Source: Fidelibacterota bacterium
Lineage (GTDB): Bacteria; Fidelibacterota; Fidelibacteria; Fidelibacterales; DSDE01
Assembly: GCA_046735395.1 (NCBI GenBank)
Contig: JBJKQR010000009.1
Location: 1 to 60,146 of the forward strand
DNA length: 60,146 bases
Direction of reading: 5' to 3'
Shown: piece after piece, positions 3,647 to 60,146 of the stretch
How positions within the stretch are numbered: the first letter of the stretch is position 1
Layout of the letters: each line of letters opens with the position of its first letter
Position numbers and translations under genes: made by a program
The notes under the pieces: generated by a model
The model's input: the letters and a program-made list of their open reading frames with translations, nothing else
What the model was told of the DNA's origin: nothing
Databases searched by the model: none

Positions 3647-6487
3647 ATGCTTACACGCAGTGTACCATTCCTGTCATTTCTCATCCTGATGTGGAGCTGT
3701 CAGACTGCAGACCTGTTTCGAAATTCACCGGCCCCGCAGTCGATTCCCGATCTGGATTCGGCGGTGGTGTCCGGTGTGCTGGAAAACGGCCTGACCTATT
3801 ATATCCGGCATAACGATTATCCGGAAGACCGCATCGAAATGCAGCTTCTGGTGAATGTGGGCAGTTTGCAGGAAACAGAATCCGAACGGGGTTACGCTCA
3901 TTTTCTGGAACATCTTGCCTTCAACGGCACGATGCATTTTCCCGGGCAGGATCTGGTCAATTATCTGGAAGGCATCGGCATGCAGTTCGGTGCCGATGTG
4001 AATGCCTATACCTCCTTTGAGGAAACCGCGTACAGGCTGCAGCTGCCGGCGGATAATCCGGAATTTCTGGAAAAGGGCCTGCTCGTTTTTCAGGACTGGA
4101 TGGGGGGCATCGGCCTGGACTCACTGGAAGTTGAAAAAGAAAAGGGCGTCATACTGGAAGAGCTCAGGCTGAGAAAGGGTCTTGCCGCCCGCCTTCGTGA
4201 TATTCATCTGCCGGTGCTGCTGAAGGATTCCCGCTATCCGGACCGGCTGCCCATCGGGTTGGAATCCAGTATCCGCGGCGCAAAATCCACCGATCTCCAG
4301 GCCTTTTATCACAGATGGTATCAACCGGAAAACATGGCCATCGTCATTGTGGGTGATGTGGATGCCGAAGATCTGAAGGATAAGATTCAGAAACAGTTCA
4401 ACGTCAGCGCTCCGGAGCTGATTAATTATCCGGACGTCTTTCCGGTTCCCCGAAAACCTGAATTCTGTGTGAGTGTGGCACAGGATCCGGAACTGAGTTA
4501 CGGAAATCTTTCGCTGTATACCAAACATGCCCCCCGGCAAATCCATACAACCCGGGACTACCGGCAATTTCTGGCGGCACAGCTGAGTATGCAGATCCTC
4601 AATGAACGCCTGGATGTGCTCGCACGAAAACCGCATACTCCCTTTCTGGGTGCAGCCGCTTCCTACGGCTCCTATGTGAGACCTCTGGATGTATTTACCC
4701 TGGGAACAGCCTTTGATCCGGACAGTCTCAGGCCCGCGGTCCGGGCTCTCACTCGTGAGGCGCTGAGAGCACAGCGTTTCGGCTTTACCGGATCCGAGCT
4801 GAAAAGGGCCGCCGCAGATCTGATGAGCAGCTATAAAAAAGCCTGGACCGAACGGACCAAGACCACGTCCGGGAGCCTTCTGGAAAGCTATAAAAATCAT
4901 TTTCTCACCGGAGAGCCGGAGCCGGGAATTGAATATGAATTCAATCTCGTTTCCCGTCTGCTGCCCCGAATCAGGCCCGCTGACCTGAAACAGGCTCTGA
5001 ATCAGATGCTGGATGCTCCCGACCAGGTTGCTCTCGTCAATCTTCCGGAAAATACGGCGGCCGTGATCGATTCCACCGGGCTGGCGACCCTTCTAAAGGA
5101 GGTTGCCGGGGAAGACATCCGGAATGAAGCCGACGACGACACAGATGTATCCTTTCTCGATTTCAAACCCGAACCAGGGACTGTTGTGAAACGAATAGAT
5201 TATGAGAAACCGGGAATCCGTGAAGTGATTCTGGCGAATGGCCTGCACGTGTATCTGCACCCGAGTGACTATAAAAATGATCAGATTATCTTTTCCGGCT
5301 ACAGCCCGGGTGGATTGTCCATGGCAGAGAATGCAAATTATTTTTCAGCATCCATGGCTGTAAATATCATGATGGAAAGCGGTCTGGCCGGCCTGGACAA
5401 ATCCCGGCTTGATAAAGCTCTGTCCGGTATGAATCTGCGGGTCACTCCCCGGATCGGCGATGATTTCGAAGGCTTCAGCGGATTGTCCGACCGGTTGTCA
5501 CTGGAGACGGCCCTGAAGCTGGTTAATCTGTATTTTACCCGGTCCCGCTATGATTCGACGGTATATCCCATACTCCGAACCCATCTTTCCGCGCTGTTAC
5601 AGCGCAGGGAGAATGATCCGGATGCCGTATTCGAAGACAGTCTGTCCTCCTGTCTCTATGACCGCAATCCCCGGATGAGGCCCCTGCGCAGTTCCGATCT
5701 GTCCGCGATTGATCCGGCCGCGGCGGCCGCGTTCTTTCGTGAACGCTTTGCCAATCCGTCCGATTTTTCCTTCTATTTCTCAGGCAATTTCGATACAGAC
5801 AGCCTGGAGCTGCTCTGCCGCAGGTATCTGGGAACGCTCTCCGGTTCCGGTAGGCAGGACGTGGTACCCGATACCCATCCGGTCATGCCTGATACGGTTA
5901 TGGTCAGGACTGTGACGAAGGGAATTGAGAATAAGGGCCGGGCCTGTATGGTGTTTTTCGGTGATACGGATTTTTCCTGGCATGAGGTCCACAATCTGAA
6001 TTCCACTGCTCAGGCGCTGGAAATTCTGCTCAGAGAGCGGATCCGCGAAGATCTGGGAGGTACTTATGGCATCGGTGTCAGTCTGCGTCTGTTTCCGCAA
6101 ATCCGGCCCCGTTATGAATTCATCATCGATTTTTCCTGTGATCCGGCACGGGAGGAAGAACTGTCCGGGCAGGTACTGAGCCTGATTGACAGTCTGCGAA
6201 GCAATGTCCGGGATACGTCCGTGATAGAAAAAGTCAGGGAAGGTTTTCTCCGTCAGAGGGAGACGGATATAGAAACCAACCGATTCTGGACGGCCATGAT
6301 GCAGAATTATACGGTCTATGGTTTCGGGCTGGAAAATATTCTGAATTACCCGGAATTAAGCCGGGATTTCACGATACAGGTTTTTCAGAAGCTAATCCGG
6401 GAAAAATTCAATCCGGAAAAATATCTCAAAGTATATCTGTTGCCGGATCATCTGTCCGGAGAAGGGAAAGAGGCTGCACATGATTAA
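3647..6487 (+). CDS. M16 family (PqqL-like) zinc protease, probable lipoprotein
   Basis: HFLEH inverted zinc motif, NAYTSFEET; start moved to ATG 3647 (AAGGA SD, LMWSC lipobox-like). Confidence 0.9.
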   Translation: MLTRSVPFLSFLILMWSCQTADLFRNSPAPQSIPDLDSAVVSGVLENGLTYYIRHNDYPEDRIEMQLLVNVGSLQETESERGYAHFLEHLAFNGTMHFPGQDLVNYLEGIGMQFGADVNAYTSFEETAYRLQLPADNPEFLEKGLLVFQDWMGGIGLDSLEVEKEKGVILEELRLRKGLAARLRDIHLPVLLKDSRYPDRLPIGLESSIRGAKSTDLQAFYHRWYQPENMAIVIVGDVDAEDLKDKIQKQFNVSAPELINYPDVFPVPRKPEFCVSVAQDPELSYGNLSLYTKHAPRQIHTTRDYRQFLAAQLSMQILNERLDVLARKPHTPFLGAAASYGSYVRPLDVFTLGTAFDPDSLRPAVRALTREALRAQRFGFTGSELKRAAADLMSSYKKAWTERTKTTSGSLLESYKNHFLTGEPEPGIEYEFNLVSRLLPRIRPADLKQALNQMLDAPDQVALVNLPENTAAVIDSTGLATLLKEVAGEDIRNEADDDTDVSFLDFKPEPGTVVKRIDYEKPGIREVILANGLHVYLHPSDYKNDQIIFSGYSPGGLSMAENANYFSASMAVNIMMESGLAGLDKSRLDKALSGMNLRVTPRIGDDFEGFSGLSDRLSLETALKLVNLYFTRSRYDSTVYPILRTHLSALLQRRENDPDAVFEDSLSSCLYDRNPRMRPLRSSDLSAIDPAAAAAFFRERFANPSDFSFYFSGNFDTDSLELLCRRYLGTLSGSGRQDVVPDTHPVMPDTVMVRTVTKGIENKGRACMVFFGDTDFSWHEVHNLNSTAQALEILLRERIREDLGGTYGIGVSLRLFPQIRPRYEFIIDFSCDPAREEELSGQVLSLIDSLRSNVRDTSVIEKVREGFLRQRETDIETNRFWTAMMQNYTVYGFGLENILNYPELSRDFTIQVFQKLIREKFNPEKYLKVYLLPDHLSGEGKEAAHD

Positions 6488-8897
6488 GAAAACCGCGATT
6501 ACACTTGCTGTGTTCATTGTTCTGGTTATTTTAGGCACCCTGCTGTACTATAATCGGATGACGACCCGGGCTATTCCGGACTACACCGGCCGGCTGGTCT
6601 TCAAAGGGCTGGAGGAACCGGTGGAGATATACCGGGACAAATATGCAGTTCCTCACATTTTCGCGAAGAATGAAGCGGATCTGTACCGGGCTACGGGCTA
6701 TCTCATTGCCGAAGACAGGCTCTGGCAGATGGATCTGCTCCGGCGGGTCACCACAGGCCGCCTGTCGGAAATATTCGGAAAGGATCTGGTCCAGGTTGAC
6801 CAGCTCATGAGAGCACTGAAGATCACGGACAAGTCCATAAAAATTCTGGCAAAGTCAAATCCTGACATTCTGACGGATCTGGAAAGTTTTTCCCGGGGTG
6901 TAAATCAGTTTATCAAGGATCATGAACATAAACTGCCGGTGGAATTCAGCATACTCGGTTACAAGCCCGAACCCTGGCAGCCGGTGTATTCCGTAAATCT
7001 CATCGGCTATATGGCCTGGGATCTGACCATGCCCTACAGTGTGGAGACCGTCCTGAACAAGATTCGGGACAAGGTGACTCCCGAACAGTACGCGGAACTG
7101 ATCCCGGATGTCATGAAACAGACGACGACGGTTTATCCGGCAGAATCGCTGAGCGCCCGGGATGCGGATGTGATCGGGACTTCACTGCTCGCGTCCATGG
7201 ATAAGCTGAGTCAATGGGGTGTGCAGAGTTTTCAGGGAAGCAACAACTGGGCAATTTCAGGATCGAAAAGTGCCACGGGTGCTCCCATCTTCTGCAATGA
7301 CATGCACCTGGGACTGAATGCGCCCGGGCTCTGGTACCAGATTCATCAGGTGGTGGAAGGGAAACTCAATGTCACGGGTGTTCTGCTGCCCGGACAGCCC
7401 TTCGTCATTGCCGGGCATAATGCGGATATTGCCTGGGGTATGACCAATGTGGATGTGGATGACATGGATTTTTACCGGGAAAAATTTGACGACAAGGGTG
7501 AAAGTTATCTCTACGATGATTACTGGTATCCGGTGGAACGTCAGGAGGAGACAATCCGGATCAAGGGCGGCACGGATACGACAGTCGTGAATCTTTTCAC
7601 ACAGCGCGGACCCATCATCAGCAGTTTCAAGGATTTTCGCGATGAAATGATTTCCATGACCTGGACGGGAAATCTCATGTCCAACGAGATCAGAACGGTT
7701 TACCTGCTGAACCGGGCTAAAAACTGGGATGATTTCCGTGATGCGATACAGACCTTCCGGGCGGTCTCACAGAATATTGATTACGCGGACCGCTTCGGCA
7801 ATATCGGGCTCTATAACTGCGCCGGCATACCGGTCCGGCCGGCCGGGATGACCGGTATCGATATCTATCCGGGATGGACCAGTGACTATAACTGGAGAGG
7901 CATTCTGCCCTTCGAGAAACAACTTTTCAGTTTCAACCCCAGCTCGGGATACGTGAGTTCGGCCAATAACAAGACGGCCGTCAATGATTATCCCTATCCC
8001 GTTTCCCACTGGTTTGCCCTGCCGTATCGCATCGACCGGATCCGGGAACTGCTGGAGGCAAGCAATTCCATTTCCGTGGACGATATGAAGAAAATTCAGA
8101 GTGATGAAAAGTCGCTTTTTGTCGGAGAAATAAAACCTCTGCTCTTAAACGGAATGAAGGGTAAGAAAGCCTTGAGCGATCAGGGGCGGGCGATGCTGCG
8201 ACGTCTGAAAAAATGGGATGATACCATGACCGTTGAGAGCCCGGAAGCTGCCGTATTCGAACTTTTTTATGTGAATTTTATCCAGAATATGCTTCAAGAT
8301 GAACTGGGAGAAAAACTGTACAGAGAGTACTCCAAGACCAGTGTCCTGTCCAGATATTTTCTCAATAACCTGATGCAGAACGGAGCCAGCGCCTATGCTG
8401 ATGATATCAGTACGCCGGATGTGAAGGAAACACTCTCGGATCAGATCATAAAAAGCTATAAGCAGGCGATCGCCCTTATGATACAGGACCACAGCAACAA
8501 TATCGACAATTGGCACTGGGGTGATATTCACCAGCTCACTCTCAAGCATCCGCTGGGATCGGTGAAAATTCTGGACCGGCTGTTTCATTTCAATTACGGG
8601 CCCATTCCGGCACCGGGAAACGCCACTACAGTCGCCCCGATGGCCTACAAGCTCTCGGATCCCTTCGATGTGAATCACGGGCCGTCTCAGAGACATATCT
8701 ATACCCCGGACAACTGGGATAATTCCTTCAGCGTGATTCCCACGGGAGAATGCGGCGTGCCGAACAGTCCGCATTACTGCGATCAGACGGAAATGTATAT
8801 GAAATTCCAGTATCATCCGGATTATTTCAGCCGGGAAAAAGTCATTGAAAATGCGAAGTATAAGCAGGAGCTGCTCCCCGCAAGGCTGGGGATCTGA
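6480..8897 (+). CDS. Penicillin acylase family (S45) Ntn-hydrolase, membrane anchored
   Basis: RDKYAVPHIFA, DRLWQMD, GSNNWAI (beta-chain Ser), NDMHL; N-terminal TM. Confidence 0.92.
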   Translation: MIKKTAITLAVFIVLVILGTLLYYNRMTTRAIPDYTGRLVFKGLEEPVEIYRDKYAVPHIFAKNEADLYRATGYLIAEDRLWQMDLLRRVTTGRLSEIFGKDLVQVDQLMRALKITDKSIKILAKSNPDILTDLESFSRGVNQFIKDHEHKLPVEFSILGYKPEPWQPVYSVNLIGYMAWDLTMPYSVETVLNKIRDKVTPEQYAELIPDVMKQTTTVYPAESLSARDADVIGTSLLASMDKLSQWGVQSFQGSNNWAISGSKSATGAPIFCNDMHLGLNAPGLWYQIHQVVEGKLNVTGVLLPGQPFVIAGHNADIAWGMTNVDVDDMDFYREKFDDKGESYLYDDYWYPVERQEETIRIKGGTDTTVVNLFTQRGPIISSFKDFRDEMISMTWTGNLMSNEIRTVYLLNRAKNWDDFRDAIQTFRAVSQNIDYADRFGNIGLYNCAGIPVRPAGMTGIDIYPGWTSDYNWRGILPFEKQLFSFNPSSGYVSSANNKTAVNDYPYPVSHWFALPYRIDRIRELLEASNSISVDDMKKIQSDEKSLFVGEIKPLLLNGMKGKKALSDQGRAMLRRLKKWDDTMTVESPEAAVFELFYVNFIQNMLQDELGEKLYREYSKTSVLSRYFLNNLMQNGASAYADDISTPDVKETLSDQIIKSYKQAIALMIQDHSNNIDNWHWGDIHQLTLKHPLGSVKILDRLFHFNYGPIPAPGNATTVAPMAYKLSDPFDVNHGPSQRHIYTPDNWDNSFSVIPTGECGVPNSPHYCDQTEMYMKFQYHPDYFSREKVIENAKYKQELLPARLGI

Positions 8898-57286: not shown

Positions 57287-57327
57287 AAGGAACAAGGGAC
57301 AAGGAACAGGATCAAGGCGCCAGGAAC
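57287..57327. repeat. Degenerate 7-mer tandem repeat (AAGGAAC)
   Basis: aaggaac aagggac aaggaac aggatc aaggcgc caggaac. Confidence 0.6.
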
Positions 57328-57481
57328 AAAAAAGAGGAAGGAGCCCGGGTGAAACAGTTTGCAGGCGTCAGGAGACAGTCGGCAGGCCCGTCTCCGTTTC
57401 GTTTCGCTCAACTACGACACGGCAGGCGAGACGAGATGGCGTCGGGGCGAAAAGTGAAACTTTGGCTGGAACGAGACCGAT

Positions 57482-57588
57482 GGTGGCTGAGTGGTATCAT
57501 TCGGTGACTGAGTGGTATCACCCGGTGGCTGAGCGGTATCACCCGGTGGCTGAGCGGTATCACCCGGTGGCTGAGCGGAGCCGAAGCC
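57482..57588. repeat. 21-bp tandem repeat, 4 full units plus a divergent fifth
   Basis: GGTGGCTGAG(C/T)GGTATCACCC units at 57482, 57503, 57524 and 57545; the last ends GGAGCCGAAGCC. Confidence 0.9.
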
Positions 57589-57704
57589 TATGTCATTGCG
57601 GACTGTCACTGCGGACCTGATCCGCAGCGCAATCTGGTTTTACGTGTTGCGAGGATGCCGATAATATCAAGACATGAATGATAGTTTACCGCCCTATAAA
57701 ACGT

Positions 57705-57732
57705 GTACAGACGTTGCATGCAACGTCTGTAC
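57705..57732. repeat. Perfect 28-bp palindrome, REP-like
   Basis: GTACAGACGTTGCA/TGCAACGTCTGTAC. Confidence 0.85.
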
Positions 57733-57767
57733 CGAAATTCTGTAGACACGGCAAATTCTCGTTTCTT

Positions 57768-57833
57768 CCTCAGCCTCAACCTCAACCTCAACCTTAACCT
57801 TAACCTCAACCTTAACCTCAACATCAGCCTCAG
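57768..57833. repeat. Hexanucleotide tandem repeat, consensus CCTYAR, 11 units
   Basis: cctcag cctcaa x3 ccttaa x2 cctcaa ccttaa cctcaa catcag cctcag. Confidence 0.9.
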
Positions 57834-57968
57834 CCCAATCTCATCATTCATCTTCCTCTGCGAACTTCGCGGACTTTGCGAGAGGATTTTTCCCACCAAA
57901 AAAAACTCTTTGCAGAAACGGTCAGCTTGTTTAAATTCAGTCGGTTAAAAGGATTCAGGACTAATTGA

Positions 57969-58036
57969 GTACACATCGAACATGGACGGATGTTTTCTGA
58001 GCTGACCTGAGGCTCACAGGATCTGCGGATGTGTAC
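57969..58036 (+). other. Multi-branch hairpin in the DUF1883 leader (candidate structured RNA)
   Basis: 9-bp outer stem GTACACATC/GATGTGTAC enclosing GAACAT/ATGTTT and TGAGC/GCTCA hairpins. Confidence 0.35.
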
Positions 58037-58491: not shown

Positions 58492-58630
58492 CCCGGGGAC
58501 GGCACCAACCGGGTTCGGAACGCGCAGCCGTCAGCGTATTCCTGTGGGACCGGGTTGGGATGGGAACAAATATGACAATGGCCTGGCACTGATCGAAACA
58601 CCGCTGTTAATCTGATGATGGCATGTGAAT

Positions 58631-59842
58631 ATGATAAAAATATTCCGTGGAAAGCATGATGGACAAGACGTTATTTGGATGGAAGTTCCCTATGATCGAG
58701 TCCTGATCAGAAAAATAAAGTCATTGGGTTATGCAAAATGGTTCCCGGAGAAGAAATTATGGTACATACCATTTAAGAATTTTGATACAGAAAGGATGGC
58801 TGCGGTTTTTGGCTCTGAAATTCTTAAACACATTGATAAAGATTTATTTATTGCGGAAAGGTCTAAAAAGGACTCTCCTGATTTTATTGCTCTGACAAAA
58901 CAAATGAGAATGGAATTGGGAAGCAGGCATTATAGTAAGAGGACCCAGGAGAGTTATACAAATTGGTGCAAACGCTTTTTTCAATTTTATTCTGATAATA
59001 ATTTAGGGGAATTGGATACGAATGCTGTCAATAAATTTTTATCCTATCTTGCAATTCATGAAAATGTAAGTTCATCAACTCAGAATCAGGCCCTCTCCGC
59101 TTTTTTATTTTTATTTCGATTCGTTATGCATCAGGATCTGGAGACTCTGGATGATGTGATTCGGGCGCGTAAACCAACGTATTTGCCCGTTGTTTTATCT
59201 AAATCAGAAGTTAGGGCAATAATTAATAATTTGAACGGAATGACCAGGCTGATGGCTTCTCTGATATATGGTACGGGCATACGGCTGAATGAATGCCTGA
59301 ACCTGAGGATTCAGGATCTGGATTTTGAAAAGAATGAAATACAGGTTCGCGGTGGAAAAGGTGCCAAAGACCGAGTGACGATGTTGCCCGAAATGCTTAA
59401 AAAGGAGCTGAAAAAGCATCTGGAAGACGTTAAAATGATCCATGATTCAGATTTGATCGATGGATGGGGACAGGTGGAGCTGCCGGATGCATTGGACAGA
59501 AAATATCCTTCAGCACCGCGGGAATGGAGATGGCAATGGGTATTTCCACAGGAACATCGTTGGAAAAATGCCCGAACTCTGCAACAGGGACGTCATCATA
59601 TTGACGCGTCCATTTTGCAGAAAGCCTTCCGCAAGGCTGTGGCCAAAACCGGAATGGCAAAACGGGCCAGCGTTCACACTTTACGTCATTCCTTCGCGAC
59701 CCATTTACTTGAAGACGGCTATGACATCAGAACTGTGCAGGAGTTATTGGGACACAAGGATGTGAGAACCACAATGATATATACGCATGTACTGAATCGT
59801 GGTGGAAAGGGTGTCAAAAGTCCGTTGGATAATCTGGAGTAA
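58631..59842 (+). CDS. intI: Integron integrase with N-terminal extension
   Basis: STQNQALSA, GTGIRLNE, GKGAKDR, HTLRHSFATH, LGHKDV, MIYTH; IntI-specific insert LPDALDRKYP..WRWQWVFP..RHH. Confidence 0.93.
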   Translation: MIKIFRGKHDGQDVIWMEVPYDRVLIRKIKSLGYAKWFPEKKLWYIPFKNFDTERMAAVFGSEILKHIDKDLFIAERSKKDSPDFIALTKQMRMELGSRHYSKRTQESYTNWCKRFFQFYSDNNLGELDTNAVNKFLSYLAIHENVSSSTQNQALSAFLFLFRFVMHQDLETLDDVIRARKPTYLPVVLSKSEVRAIINNLNGMTRLMASLIYGTGIRLNECLNLRIQDLDFEKNEIQVRGGKGAKDRVTMLPEMLKKELKKHLEDVKMIHDSDLIDGWGQVELPDALDRKYPSAPREWRWQWVFPQEHRWKNARTLQQGRHHIDASILQKAFRKAVAKTGMAKRASVHTLRHSFATHLLEDGYDIRTVQELLGHKDVRTTMIYTHVLNRGGKGVKSPLDNLE

Positions 59843-59845
59843 ATA

Positions 59846-60001
59846 TGTTATCAGGTTTCCCGATAACACGCAAAGCATTTGTCCGAATCAAAATATATAC
59901 TTGTTATTAATGTGTTTAGATAATATATTCAGCGAATATTATCAGGAAACCAGATAACAGGTTATGATCTTATAAGGAAACCGTACAATTAATAGTTATG
60001 C
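59846..60001 (+). mobile_element. Putative attI region downstream of intI
   Basis: Three related boxes at 59848, 59939 and 59970, then core site GTTATGC at 59995 directly before a new ORF. Confidence 0.65.
59901..59929 (+). promoter_or_regulatory. Candidate cassette promoter (Pc)
   Basis: TTGTTA-17 nt-TATATT pointing at the core site and first cassette. Confidence 0.5.
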
Positions 60002-60024
60002 AGACCCTTCGGGCGGAGGAAAAA

Positions 60025-60146
60025 ATGGCAGATATTAGGATTGATTTACACACGGACTGGGCGAATATCCTTCGCCAGCAGTTTACAGAACGAGGGTATT
60101 CAATACCATCATCTGCAGATAATGATCATATCTGTTTGATGTATTT
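60025..60146 (+). CDS. Probable first gene cassette ORF (partial, hypothetical)
   Basis: GGAGG SD, ATG, open to the window end: MADIRIDLHTDWANILRQQFTERGYSIPSSADNDHICLMY. Confidence 0.7.
   Translation, partial: MADIRIDLHTDWANILRQQFTERGYSIPSSADNDHICLMY

What the first reader, a model, noticed from the sequence alone, without database searches (positions are those of the whole stretch)
58631..60146. Reverse-orientation integron: cassette array begins downstream of intI
Seen: an intact IntI on +, then an AT-rich 150-bp region, a GTT core site (GTTATGC, 59995) and 23 nt later an SD-led ORF on the same strand. The segment is visibly more AT-rich than the core genes. Known: canonical integrons have attI upstream of a divergent intI, and co-oriented arrays are the exception (e.g. 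Treponema denticola). Inference: a chromosomal reverse-type integron in a poorly studied lineage, with an array of novel (possibly defence) cassettes beyond the window.
Basis: partly seen in the sequence, partly recalled or inferred. Interest (0 to 1): 0.8.

Follow-up and report, generated by a model that had tools for sequence, protein, structure and literature searches.

The report
One integrase, three cassette docking sites
This is a real gene-capture platform (an integron) of the known 'reverse' type whose own gene array is cut off by the end of the contig, and the same docking site recurs twice elsewhere in the genome in front of small arrays of predicted anti-phage genes with no recombinase of their own, so one enzyme likely serves several scattered arrays.

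Summary
Observation confirmed. An intact integron integrase (58625-59842) is followed, on the same strand, by a 152-bp AT-rich head, GTTATGC at 59995 and an SD-led ORF. The contig ends at 60146, so this array cannot be seen. The site is attI: a matrix trained on other genomes ranks it first in this genome, and in the integrase's clade 62 of 64 attC hits lie downstream on the intI strand. The reverse layout is therefore an already described type.

New here: the attI head recurs on contigs C36 and C30 with no intI in front, each leading four cassettes, several of them defence-like. At C36 it is 60/65 identical up to the GTT but 27/60 in the spacer. Extra heads occur in 6 of 10 reverse-type and 2 of 5 canonical genomes self-tested, never behind a complete intI. 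The integrase also carries a HARP-like N-terminal domain.

Best reading: one diffusible integrase serves several conserved attI platforms (inferred, 0.65). Print precedent found: one Shewanella prophage. This scan noted satellite attI heads and HARP-integrases before, on other DNA.

The parts
58625..59842 (+). intI, intact integron integrase (405 aa from GTG; alternative ATG at 58631); the only full-length IntI found in the assembly
   Evidence: TIGR02249 432 bits over cut-off 265; catalytic residues; alignment to 2a3v incl. IntI insertion; one match over cut-off in the genome
58625..58820 (+). N-terminal HARP-like domain (about residues 1-65), predicted beta-beta-alpha-beta-beta-alpha
   Evidence: Profile of 13 homologous N-termini hits SMARCAL1 HARP 4o66, E 6e-4; Pfam HARP matches 7 of 13 members at E<=0.1 but not the window's own; model pLDDT 87; fold searches weak
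59846..59868 (.). Palindrome 1 (TGTTATC-N9-GATAACA) right after the intI stop; 5' edge of the attI head
   Evidence: Sequence; TTAT-N10/11-ATAA-like dyad seen by eye after the stop in many of 50 clade loci; partly kept at C36:2099
59937..59959 (.). Palindrome 2, probable accessory integrase-binding site; overlaps a weak promoter-like match (59939-59968)
   Evidence: Identical in the C36 copy; alignment of 9 heads; promoter scan not above chance, 6 vs 4.6+/-1.9
59970..60001 (+). attI core; predicted crossover between G59995 and T59996
   Evidence: Top score among all GTT sites of the 3.06-Mb genome with a matrix trained on other genomes only; similarity to the C36 and C30 copies stops at the GTT
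59996..60024 (+). 5' leader of the first cassette, with a short hairpin motif and Shine-Dalgarno GGAGG (60015-60019)
   Evidence: The same GTT-anchored leader occurs at cassette starts on C62 (after an attC), L107 and L033; 6 of 244 loci, 4 distinct places
60025..60146 (+). First 40 codons of the first cassette ORF, cut by the contig end; unidentified
   Evidence: No Pfam, NCBIfam or PADLOC hit; no homolog; no second copy in the genome; Atlas gives only weak leads
57747..58013 (+). Upstream non-coding block also found in front of the C36 satellite head; marks C36 as a collinear copy of this locus
   Evidence: 69% over 274 columns to C36:1757-2010, with an 87% core over 95 nt found only at C9 and C36
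58228..58491 (+). DUF1883 gene; missing, together with intI, from the C36 copy; no evidence that it belongs to the integron
   Evidence: Pfam; found only in the window's own locus among 168 loci

Best explanation
An intact integron integrase gene is followed on the same strand by its attI site and the start of a first cassette, and two further copies of that attI head, each leading a four-cassette array, lie elsewhere in the genome without an integrase; the single enzyme likely inserts and excises cassettes at all three. Steps. (1) Shown: the layout, the three heads, attC-like sites behind the C36 and C30 heads, one full IntI in the assembly. (2) Established for integrons: IntI recombines double-stranded attI with the folded bottom strand of attC at G/TT and replication resolves the junction. 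(3) Inferred: the TTAT-N11-ATAA dyads are extra IntI-binding sites, like DR1/DR2 of attI1, and the cassette promoter lies inside the head, as in class 2 integrons. (4) Inferred: satellites arise when a platform is duplicated and intI erodes from the end farthest from attI, while selection keeps the 30-65 bp that the remaining integrase reads. (5) Inferred, weakest: the HARP-like domain helps the enzyme find hairpin or fork DNA.
For: blastn finds the head at C36:2181-2253 (92%/73 bp) and C30:12115-12050 (76%/66 bp); nhmmer finds no fourth copy. C36 aligns without gaps over 155 nt: 60/65 identical before the GTT, 27/60 in the spacer, 21/30 at palindrome 1 (Fisher p 5e-9). An attC model built from 36 sites of other genomes hits C36 three times (E 1e-11 to 3e-6), C62 twice and C30 twice weakly. 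Each of the 4 C36 cassettes has 7/7 complementary R' and R'' boxes. A related attC sequence lies distal in all three orphan arrays. One IntI in the genome. Other genomes: extra heads in 5 of 9 further reverse-type genomes self-queried; 0 of 26 extra heads have a complete intI in front; core more conserved than spacer in 16 of 17 pairs; 21 of 21 attC hits behind satellites are on the head's strand. PMC2095811 (abstract start only) states that attI is recognised only by its cognate integrase.
Against: No activity, expression or read data (one search listed no run). The C9 array is unseen. C30 is worn: head 76% identical, attC scores weak (E 0.7-0.9), R'/R'' matches 6, 6, 3, 5 of 7. 9 of 20 regions behind satellites gave no attC hit. 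Satellites were found by BLAST, which favours conserved cores, so the 16 of 17 figure is biased; only C36 has independent flanking homology. 4 of 10 reverse-type genomes have one head only. The assembly is 90.7% complete, so a second intI could be missing. Promoter scans are at chance level.
Confidence: 0.65

Rival explanations
1. Only the C9 integron is live. C36 and C30 are frozen relics of duplicated integrons; their heads are kept because they hold the cassette promoter or a regulator's binding sites, or through gene conversion, not because they still recombine.
For: C30 shows decay. A promoter-like match at 59939-59968 is conserved at C36:2192-2221. Relatives in the same order keep only 3' intI remnants, each followed at a short distance by a same-strand ORF, and no IntI over cut-off, including one single-contig genome, G006. 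IntI loss and inactive arrays are common in print (PMC2426708, 10.1101/2025.06.18.660453; passages).
Against: Conservation runs up to the GTT and stops there in own and other genomes; first cassettes differ between most heads of one genome; C36 cassette ends are perfectly complementary.
Confidence: 0.25
2. The extra heads are an assembly effect: they come from other strains or organisms in the bin, or have their own integrase on unassembled DNA.
For: Metagenome-type assembly in 84 contigs, 90.7% complete; C36's head is 2 kb from its contig start.
Against: Contamination 0.03%. C36 is continuous from host repeats through the head into the array and on for 80 kb; C30 joins C26 by a 127-nt overlap behind a phosphofructokinase-like ORF. 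The flanks differ from C9, so the loci are not alleles. The pattern also appears in genomes with megabase contigs (G043, G048).
Confidence: 0.07
3. The GTT at 59995 is incidental and the ORF at 60025 is an ordinary chromosomal gene beside a lone integrase.
For: GTTRRRY occurs 28 times in the window; no attC is visible in the window.
Against: Top matrix score in the genome; paralogous heads lead arrays; shared cassette leader; downstream arrays in 31 of 50 clade loci.
Confidence: 0.03

Closest known systems
Reverse ('inverted integrase') chromosomal integrons, type example Treponema denticola (PMC4909258, PMC4889954, PMC3607928)
   Same: intI co-oriented with the array, attI just downstream of intI; integrase falls in a 99/96-supported clade with Treponema, Chlorobi, Planctomycetes and Cyanobium proteins; N-terminal extension shared with the Treponema proteins
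   Different: Several attI heads per genome with one intI; short arrays with mixed attC sites; a different host lineage, where 1 of 35 genomes of the order has an IntI over cut-off; sister relation to Treponema not supported
CALIN elements (clusters of attC lacking an integrase; Cury et al., PMC4889954) and the attI-headed CALIN of Shewanella prophage M16-3 (PMC9892861)
   Same: C36, C30 and C62 arrays have attC sites and no intI; loss of intI and use in trans are among the proposed origins; M16-3 has a complete integron plus a CALIN with its own attI
   Different: Here the attI head is kept and more conserved than its spacer, and the pattern recurs in many phyla with a graded series of intI remnants; IntegronFinder searches attI only for classes 1-3, so it would not report these heads (PMC4889954, passage)
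attG insertions and SALINs (10.1101/2022.09.11.507474)
   Same: Cassettes placed away from the integrase gene
   Different: attG sites differ from attI; here the sites are full copies of the cognate attI, with up to 155 bp of head and sometimes an intI remnant
HARP domain of SMARCAL1 and T4 UvsW (PF07443; PDB 4o66, 1rif; PMC4666394, passages)
   Same: Sequence profile match and predicted secondary-structure order
   Different: Fused to an integron integrase that keeps the IntI insertion; the window's own domain does not reach the Pfam cut-off and fold scores are low

Membership tests
Integron integrase (IntI) | Tyrosine recombinase catalytic set R-K-H-R-H-Y | tested here: met
   R220 K245 H351 R354 H377 Y386
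Integron integrase (IntI) | IntI-specific insertion and TIGR02249 score over cut-off | tested here: met
   432 vs 265 bits; insertion aligned to 2a3v
Complete integron | attI next to intI | tested here: met
   Comparative evidence only
Complete integron | At least one attC in an array next to intI | tested here: inconclusive
   Contig ends 152 nt after the G; no continuation found
Complete integron | Cassette promoter Pc | tested here: inconclusive
   Candidates at chance level
Complete integron | Integrase-dependent cassette insertion and excision | not testable with these tools
   Needs a recombination assay or reads
Reverse (inverted-integrase) integrons | intI on the same strand as, and upstream of, attI and cassettes | tested here: met
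   Sequence; 62 of 64 attC hits downstream on the intI strand in 54 loci
Reverse (inverted-integrase) integrons | Integrase groups with Treponema-type proteins | tested here: met
   26-row clade at 99/96; position inside it unresolved, bootstrap not fully settled
CALIN (C36 array) | Two or more attC sites and no intI nearby | tested here: met
   3 model hits; no IntI match on C36; only 2.2 kb lies upstream on the contig
CALIN (C30 array) | Two or more attC sites and no intI nearby | tested here: inconclusive
   Two weak model hits, E 0.7-0.9, a third by a script score no better than its control; no IntI match
HARP domain (PF07443) | Pfam gathering score in this protein | tested here: not met
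   No HARP hit; DUF5710 E 0.03-0.045. The homolog L019 passes, 25.8 vs 25
HARP domain (PF07443) | HARP fold | tested here: inconclusive
   Foldseek top hit 4o66, E 0.22, TM 0.48; VIA Z 4.6, rmsd 2.7, 57 aligned to UvsW 1rif, tied with unrelated folds
HARP domain (PF07443) | Binding to forked or junction DNA | not testable with these tools
   Needs a binding assay

The most novel reading that the evidence does not exclude
Many bacteria run a distributed integron: one integrase, here with a HARP-type junction-binding domain, serves several live attI platforms spread over the chromosome. This gives several 'first positions' for defence cassettes at once, and means a sizeable share of CALINs are active satellites rather than debris.
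Probability: 0.45. Interest if true: 0.75.

Novelty: new variant of a known kind. Interest (0 to 1): 0.5.

Why it matters
The reverse layout alone is a routine new example. The satellite heads bear on an open question: whether the very common integrase-less cassette clusters are dead or still recombine. attI sequences are unknown for most integrons, so surveys cannot see such heads. Using each genome's own post-intI DNA as the probe finds them cheaply and gives matched substrates (C9, C36, C30 heads) for a direct assay. If live, several heads would let a cell keep several defence cassettes in the strongly expressed first position. The HARP-like fusion gives a testable idea for how some integrases find folded DNA.

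Tried and rejected
Extending the C9 array failed: no contig overlap, no sequencing run was listed, no attC in 20 further AT-rich regions of the genome (2 junk hits), no convincing GCATAAC attC within 4 kb of any contig end. C62's first visible cassette has R'' GGCTAAC, so it is not C9's first cassette; whether C62 is a later part of the C9 array is open.

Identifying the 40-aa ORF failed; no plasmid match for the head. My rule-based attC scripts were insensitive or no better than their reversed-genome control, so I rely on the covariance model; its whole-genome run scored only 150 of 732 candidates.

I expected satellites to be specific to the reverse layout; rejected, because 2 of 5 canonical genomes have them too. 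A sixth control, G066, was dropped because the query hit a repeat family. Cross-species queries into G001, G041-G044 (window head), G045-G047, G049, G053, G054, G061 and G067 are not self-tests and were not counted.

A close sister relation to Treponema integrases (FastTree 84) did not hold in the careful tree. The single-sequence model of the whole IntI was poor (pLDDT 43). The cassette-leader pattern in viral contigs was mostly chance: 1 of 32 hits follows a clear attC. Rfam found nothing in the window. DUF1883 is not linked to intI elsewhere.

Literature: 'HARP' with 'integron integrase' gave 0 papers; searches for multiple, second, own or conserved attI gave only the M16-3 case among papers I opened; one search matched unrelated words and one search gave 0.

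Full report
What is in the window. The window is the whole of contig C9 of an 84-contig, 3.06-Mb assembly, 90.7% complete with 0.03% contamination. ORF 58625-59842 is an integron integrase: TIGR02249 432 bits over a cut-off of 265, all six catalytic residues, and the IntI insertion aligned to VchIntIA. After the stop come 152 bp at 30% GC, GTTATGC at 59995, GGAGG, and an ATG at 60025 whose ORF runs off the contig after 40 codons. Upstream genes include recO, a hydrolase, a rhomboid protease, a trypsin-like peptidase and DUF1883, so the setting is chromosomal. Earlier unchecked notes call the host a Marinimicrobia bacterium; I did not test this.

Is the GTT an attI? The heptamer alone is common. 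Four tests say yes. (a) I fetched 160 loci of related integrases and built a tree of 152 proteins. The window falls in a 51-row clade with Treponema, Chlorobi, Planctomycetes and others; a careful tree of 34 proteins without the N-terminal extension gave 99/96 for the matching clade but left the window's place inside it open. (b) A matrix trained only on post-intI sites of those 50 clade loci ranks 59995 first among all GTT sites of this genome, 23.1 against 20.5 for the next. (c) An attC covariance model from 36 sites of other genomes gave 64 hits in 54 loci, 62 of them downstream on the intI strand; 9 were training sites. 31 of the 50 clade loci have such a hit, and 17 of the 19 without one have under 800 nt downstream. 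(d) The leader after the GTT recurs at three other cassette starts. The reverse layout is thus normal for this clade and is also frequent outside it. It is described for T. denticola (PMC4909258, passages) and called paraphyletic in PMC4889954 (passages).

The array itself cannot be read. The contig end overlaps nothing, no run was listed, and no continuation was found. The ORF fragment is unidentified.

The unexpected part. The head occurs twice more in the genome: C36:2181-2253 and C30:12115-12050; a profile search finds no fourth. Neither has intI in front, and the genome has one IntI. C36 is a collinear copy of the window locus: it shares the block 57747-58013 and the whole 155-nt head, and has 88 bp where C9 has the 1.8 kb holding DUF1883 and intI. 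Identity is 60/65 up to the GTT, 27/60 in the spacer and 21/30 at the first palindrome, and ends at the GTT. Behind it are four cassettes with 7/7 complementary end boxes, three with strong attC scores: a Schlafen/AlbA-HATPase-RRM protein, an unknown, a PD-T4-10 B-like protein and a two-ORF unknown. C30 is older-looking, with weak attC scores; it holds an HsdR-N-like protein, an AAA-TOPRIM (OLD/Gabija-like) protein, a RelA/SpoT-domain protein matching PDC-S33, and an unknown. A third orphan array on C62 (two toxin-antitoxin pairs, DUF6789) is cut at its front by an IS21 element at the contig end. A related attC sequence lies distal in all three arrays. The defence labels are profile matches, some partial, not tested functions.

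Is this general? I probed genomes with their own post-intI DNA. Reverse type: extra heads in G043 (5), G048 (4), G055 (8 by BLAST, 1 more through its remnant), G056 (1), G058 (1) and the window's genome (2); none in G041, G044, G052, G057; so 6 of 10. Cross-species probes found extra heads in G050, G051 and G059. Of 26 extra heads outside this genome, none has a complete intI in front: 2 have internally deleted copies, 10 keep only the last 15-90 codons, 14 gave no tblastn match, three of these with only 385-654 nt of upstream DNA. G043, G048, G051 and G055 each have one full clade IntI; G050 has a second, 51% identical; G056, G058 and G059 were not checked for this. The last 31 nt are more conserved than the spacer in 16 of 17 pairs, 93% against 66% pooled, a figure inflated by finding copies with BLAST. 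Behind satellites, 11 of 20 regions have attC hits, all 21 on the head's strand. Canonical controls: 2 of 5 have extra heads, and in G064 they keep the first 46-107 codons, the mirror image. So intI erodes from the end far from attI in both layouts; my first idea that the reverse layout is required was wrong. In the window's own order only this genome of 35 has an IntI over cut-off; three relatives keep 3' remnants.

The integrase's extra domain. Residues 1-65 align with N-termini of 12 homologs from Treponema-like and Elusimicrobia loci. Their profile matches the SMARCAL1 HARP structure at E 6e-4, Pfam HARP matches 7 of 13 members, and the profile also retrieves HARP-SNF2 helicases and tyrosine recombinases with three such repeats (22 of 150 hits scanned). 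The model is confident (pLDDT 87) but fold searches are weak, and the window's own domain misses the Pfam cut-off. I call it HARP-like. HARP is described as a junction-binding domain in fork-reversal enzymes (PMC4666394, passages); a role in finding attC hairpins is my inference.

Mechanism. IntI recombines double-stranded attI with the folded bottom strand of attC, resolved by replication (established; PMC3458562, abstract start only). attI is read only by its cognate integrase (PMC2095811, abstract start only), which fits satellites staying close to the intI-linked copy. The dyads probably act like DR1/DR2 of attI1 (inference), and Pc probably lies inside the head as in class 2 (PMC8876359, passages; scans at chance). 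I put one integrase serving several live heads at 0.65 and frozen relics at 0.25.

What is known. CALINs, their origin by intI loss and their use in trans are in print (PMC4889954, PMC8618304, 10.1101/2025.06.18.660453; passages). An attI-headed CALIN is reported once among the papers I opened (PMC9892861, passages). PMC3607928 (first quarter of the text) assumes one attI per integron. Archaeal attI downstream of intI are in 10.1101/2022.02.06.479319 (passages). 10.1101/542381 (passages) has no mention of HARP, and one search found no paper with both terms. I also read passages of PMC2426708 and 10.1101/2022.09.11.507474. The original T. denticola report and the 2007 review naming the inverted group were not read, no supplements were seen, and subscription journals are mostly outside the library, so absence from print is not established. 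This scan's notes already record satellite heads and HARP-integrases in other genomes; I had found both here before reading them.

Verdict. A real reverse-type integron, an ordinary member of a known group in layout. It is lifted to a variant by two conserved integrase-less attI platforms and a HARP-like fusion, both testable and both unproven in function. Interest 0.5.

Noticed in passing
L168 (G000:C62:161760-167161): Third orphan cassette array with two toxin-antitoxin cassettes; its front is cut by an IS21 (istA/istB) that ends at the contig end. Two of its attC-like sites use GAC/GTC instead of AAC/GTT. It could be a later part of the C9 array.
   Followed up: partly
window 57300-57830: Mosaic of non-coding repeats (a 21-nt tandem unit, CCTCAA runs, short palindromes) with copies on more than 20 contigs, dense on C72; also in front of the C36 head.
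   Followed up: no
L317 (G006:C1:2345000-2364900), L318, L319: Relatives in the same order and family carry only 3' intI remnants (48-121 codons), each followed by a same-strand ORF; G006 is one contig and has three remnants within 8.3 kb, one with a weak attC behind it.
   Followed up: partly
L086, L109, L010, L095, L022, L017: Six clade contigs end within about 45 nt after the attI GTT, as expected if the first cassette varies within a population.
   Followed up: no
L007:2091-2161 and 4825-7674: One integrase with an attC upstream on the opposite strand and an array downstream on its own strand.
   Followed up: no
P0004, P0005, P0006, P0013: Tyrosine recombinases of 570-730 aa with three or four HARP-like repeats at the N-terminus.
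   Followed up: no
L214 and G055:C88:28576-28863: A second attI head with a 38-codon intI remnant lies 3 kb downstream of the complete integron on the same contig; G064:C10 has two heads 1 kb apart.
   Followed up: partly
L238-L243 (G066): A repeat of about 145 bp in front of the attI of a Blastocatellia integron has at least 89 matches, clustered in one chromosome region.
   Followed up: no
L167:12200-12900: A broken ORF resembling a Bro-N/antirepressor gene by eye lies between the phosphofructokinase-like gene of C26 and the C30 head.
   Followed up: no
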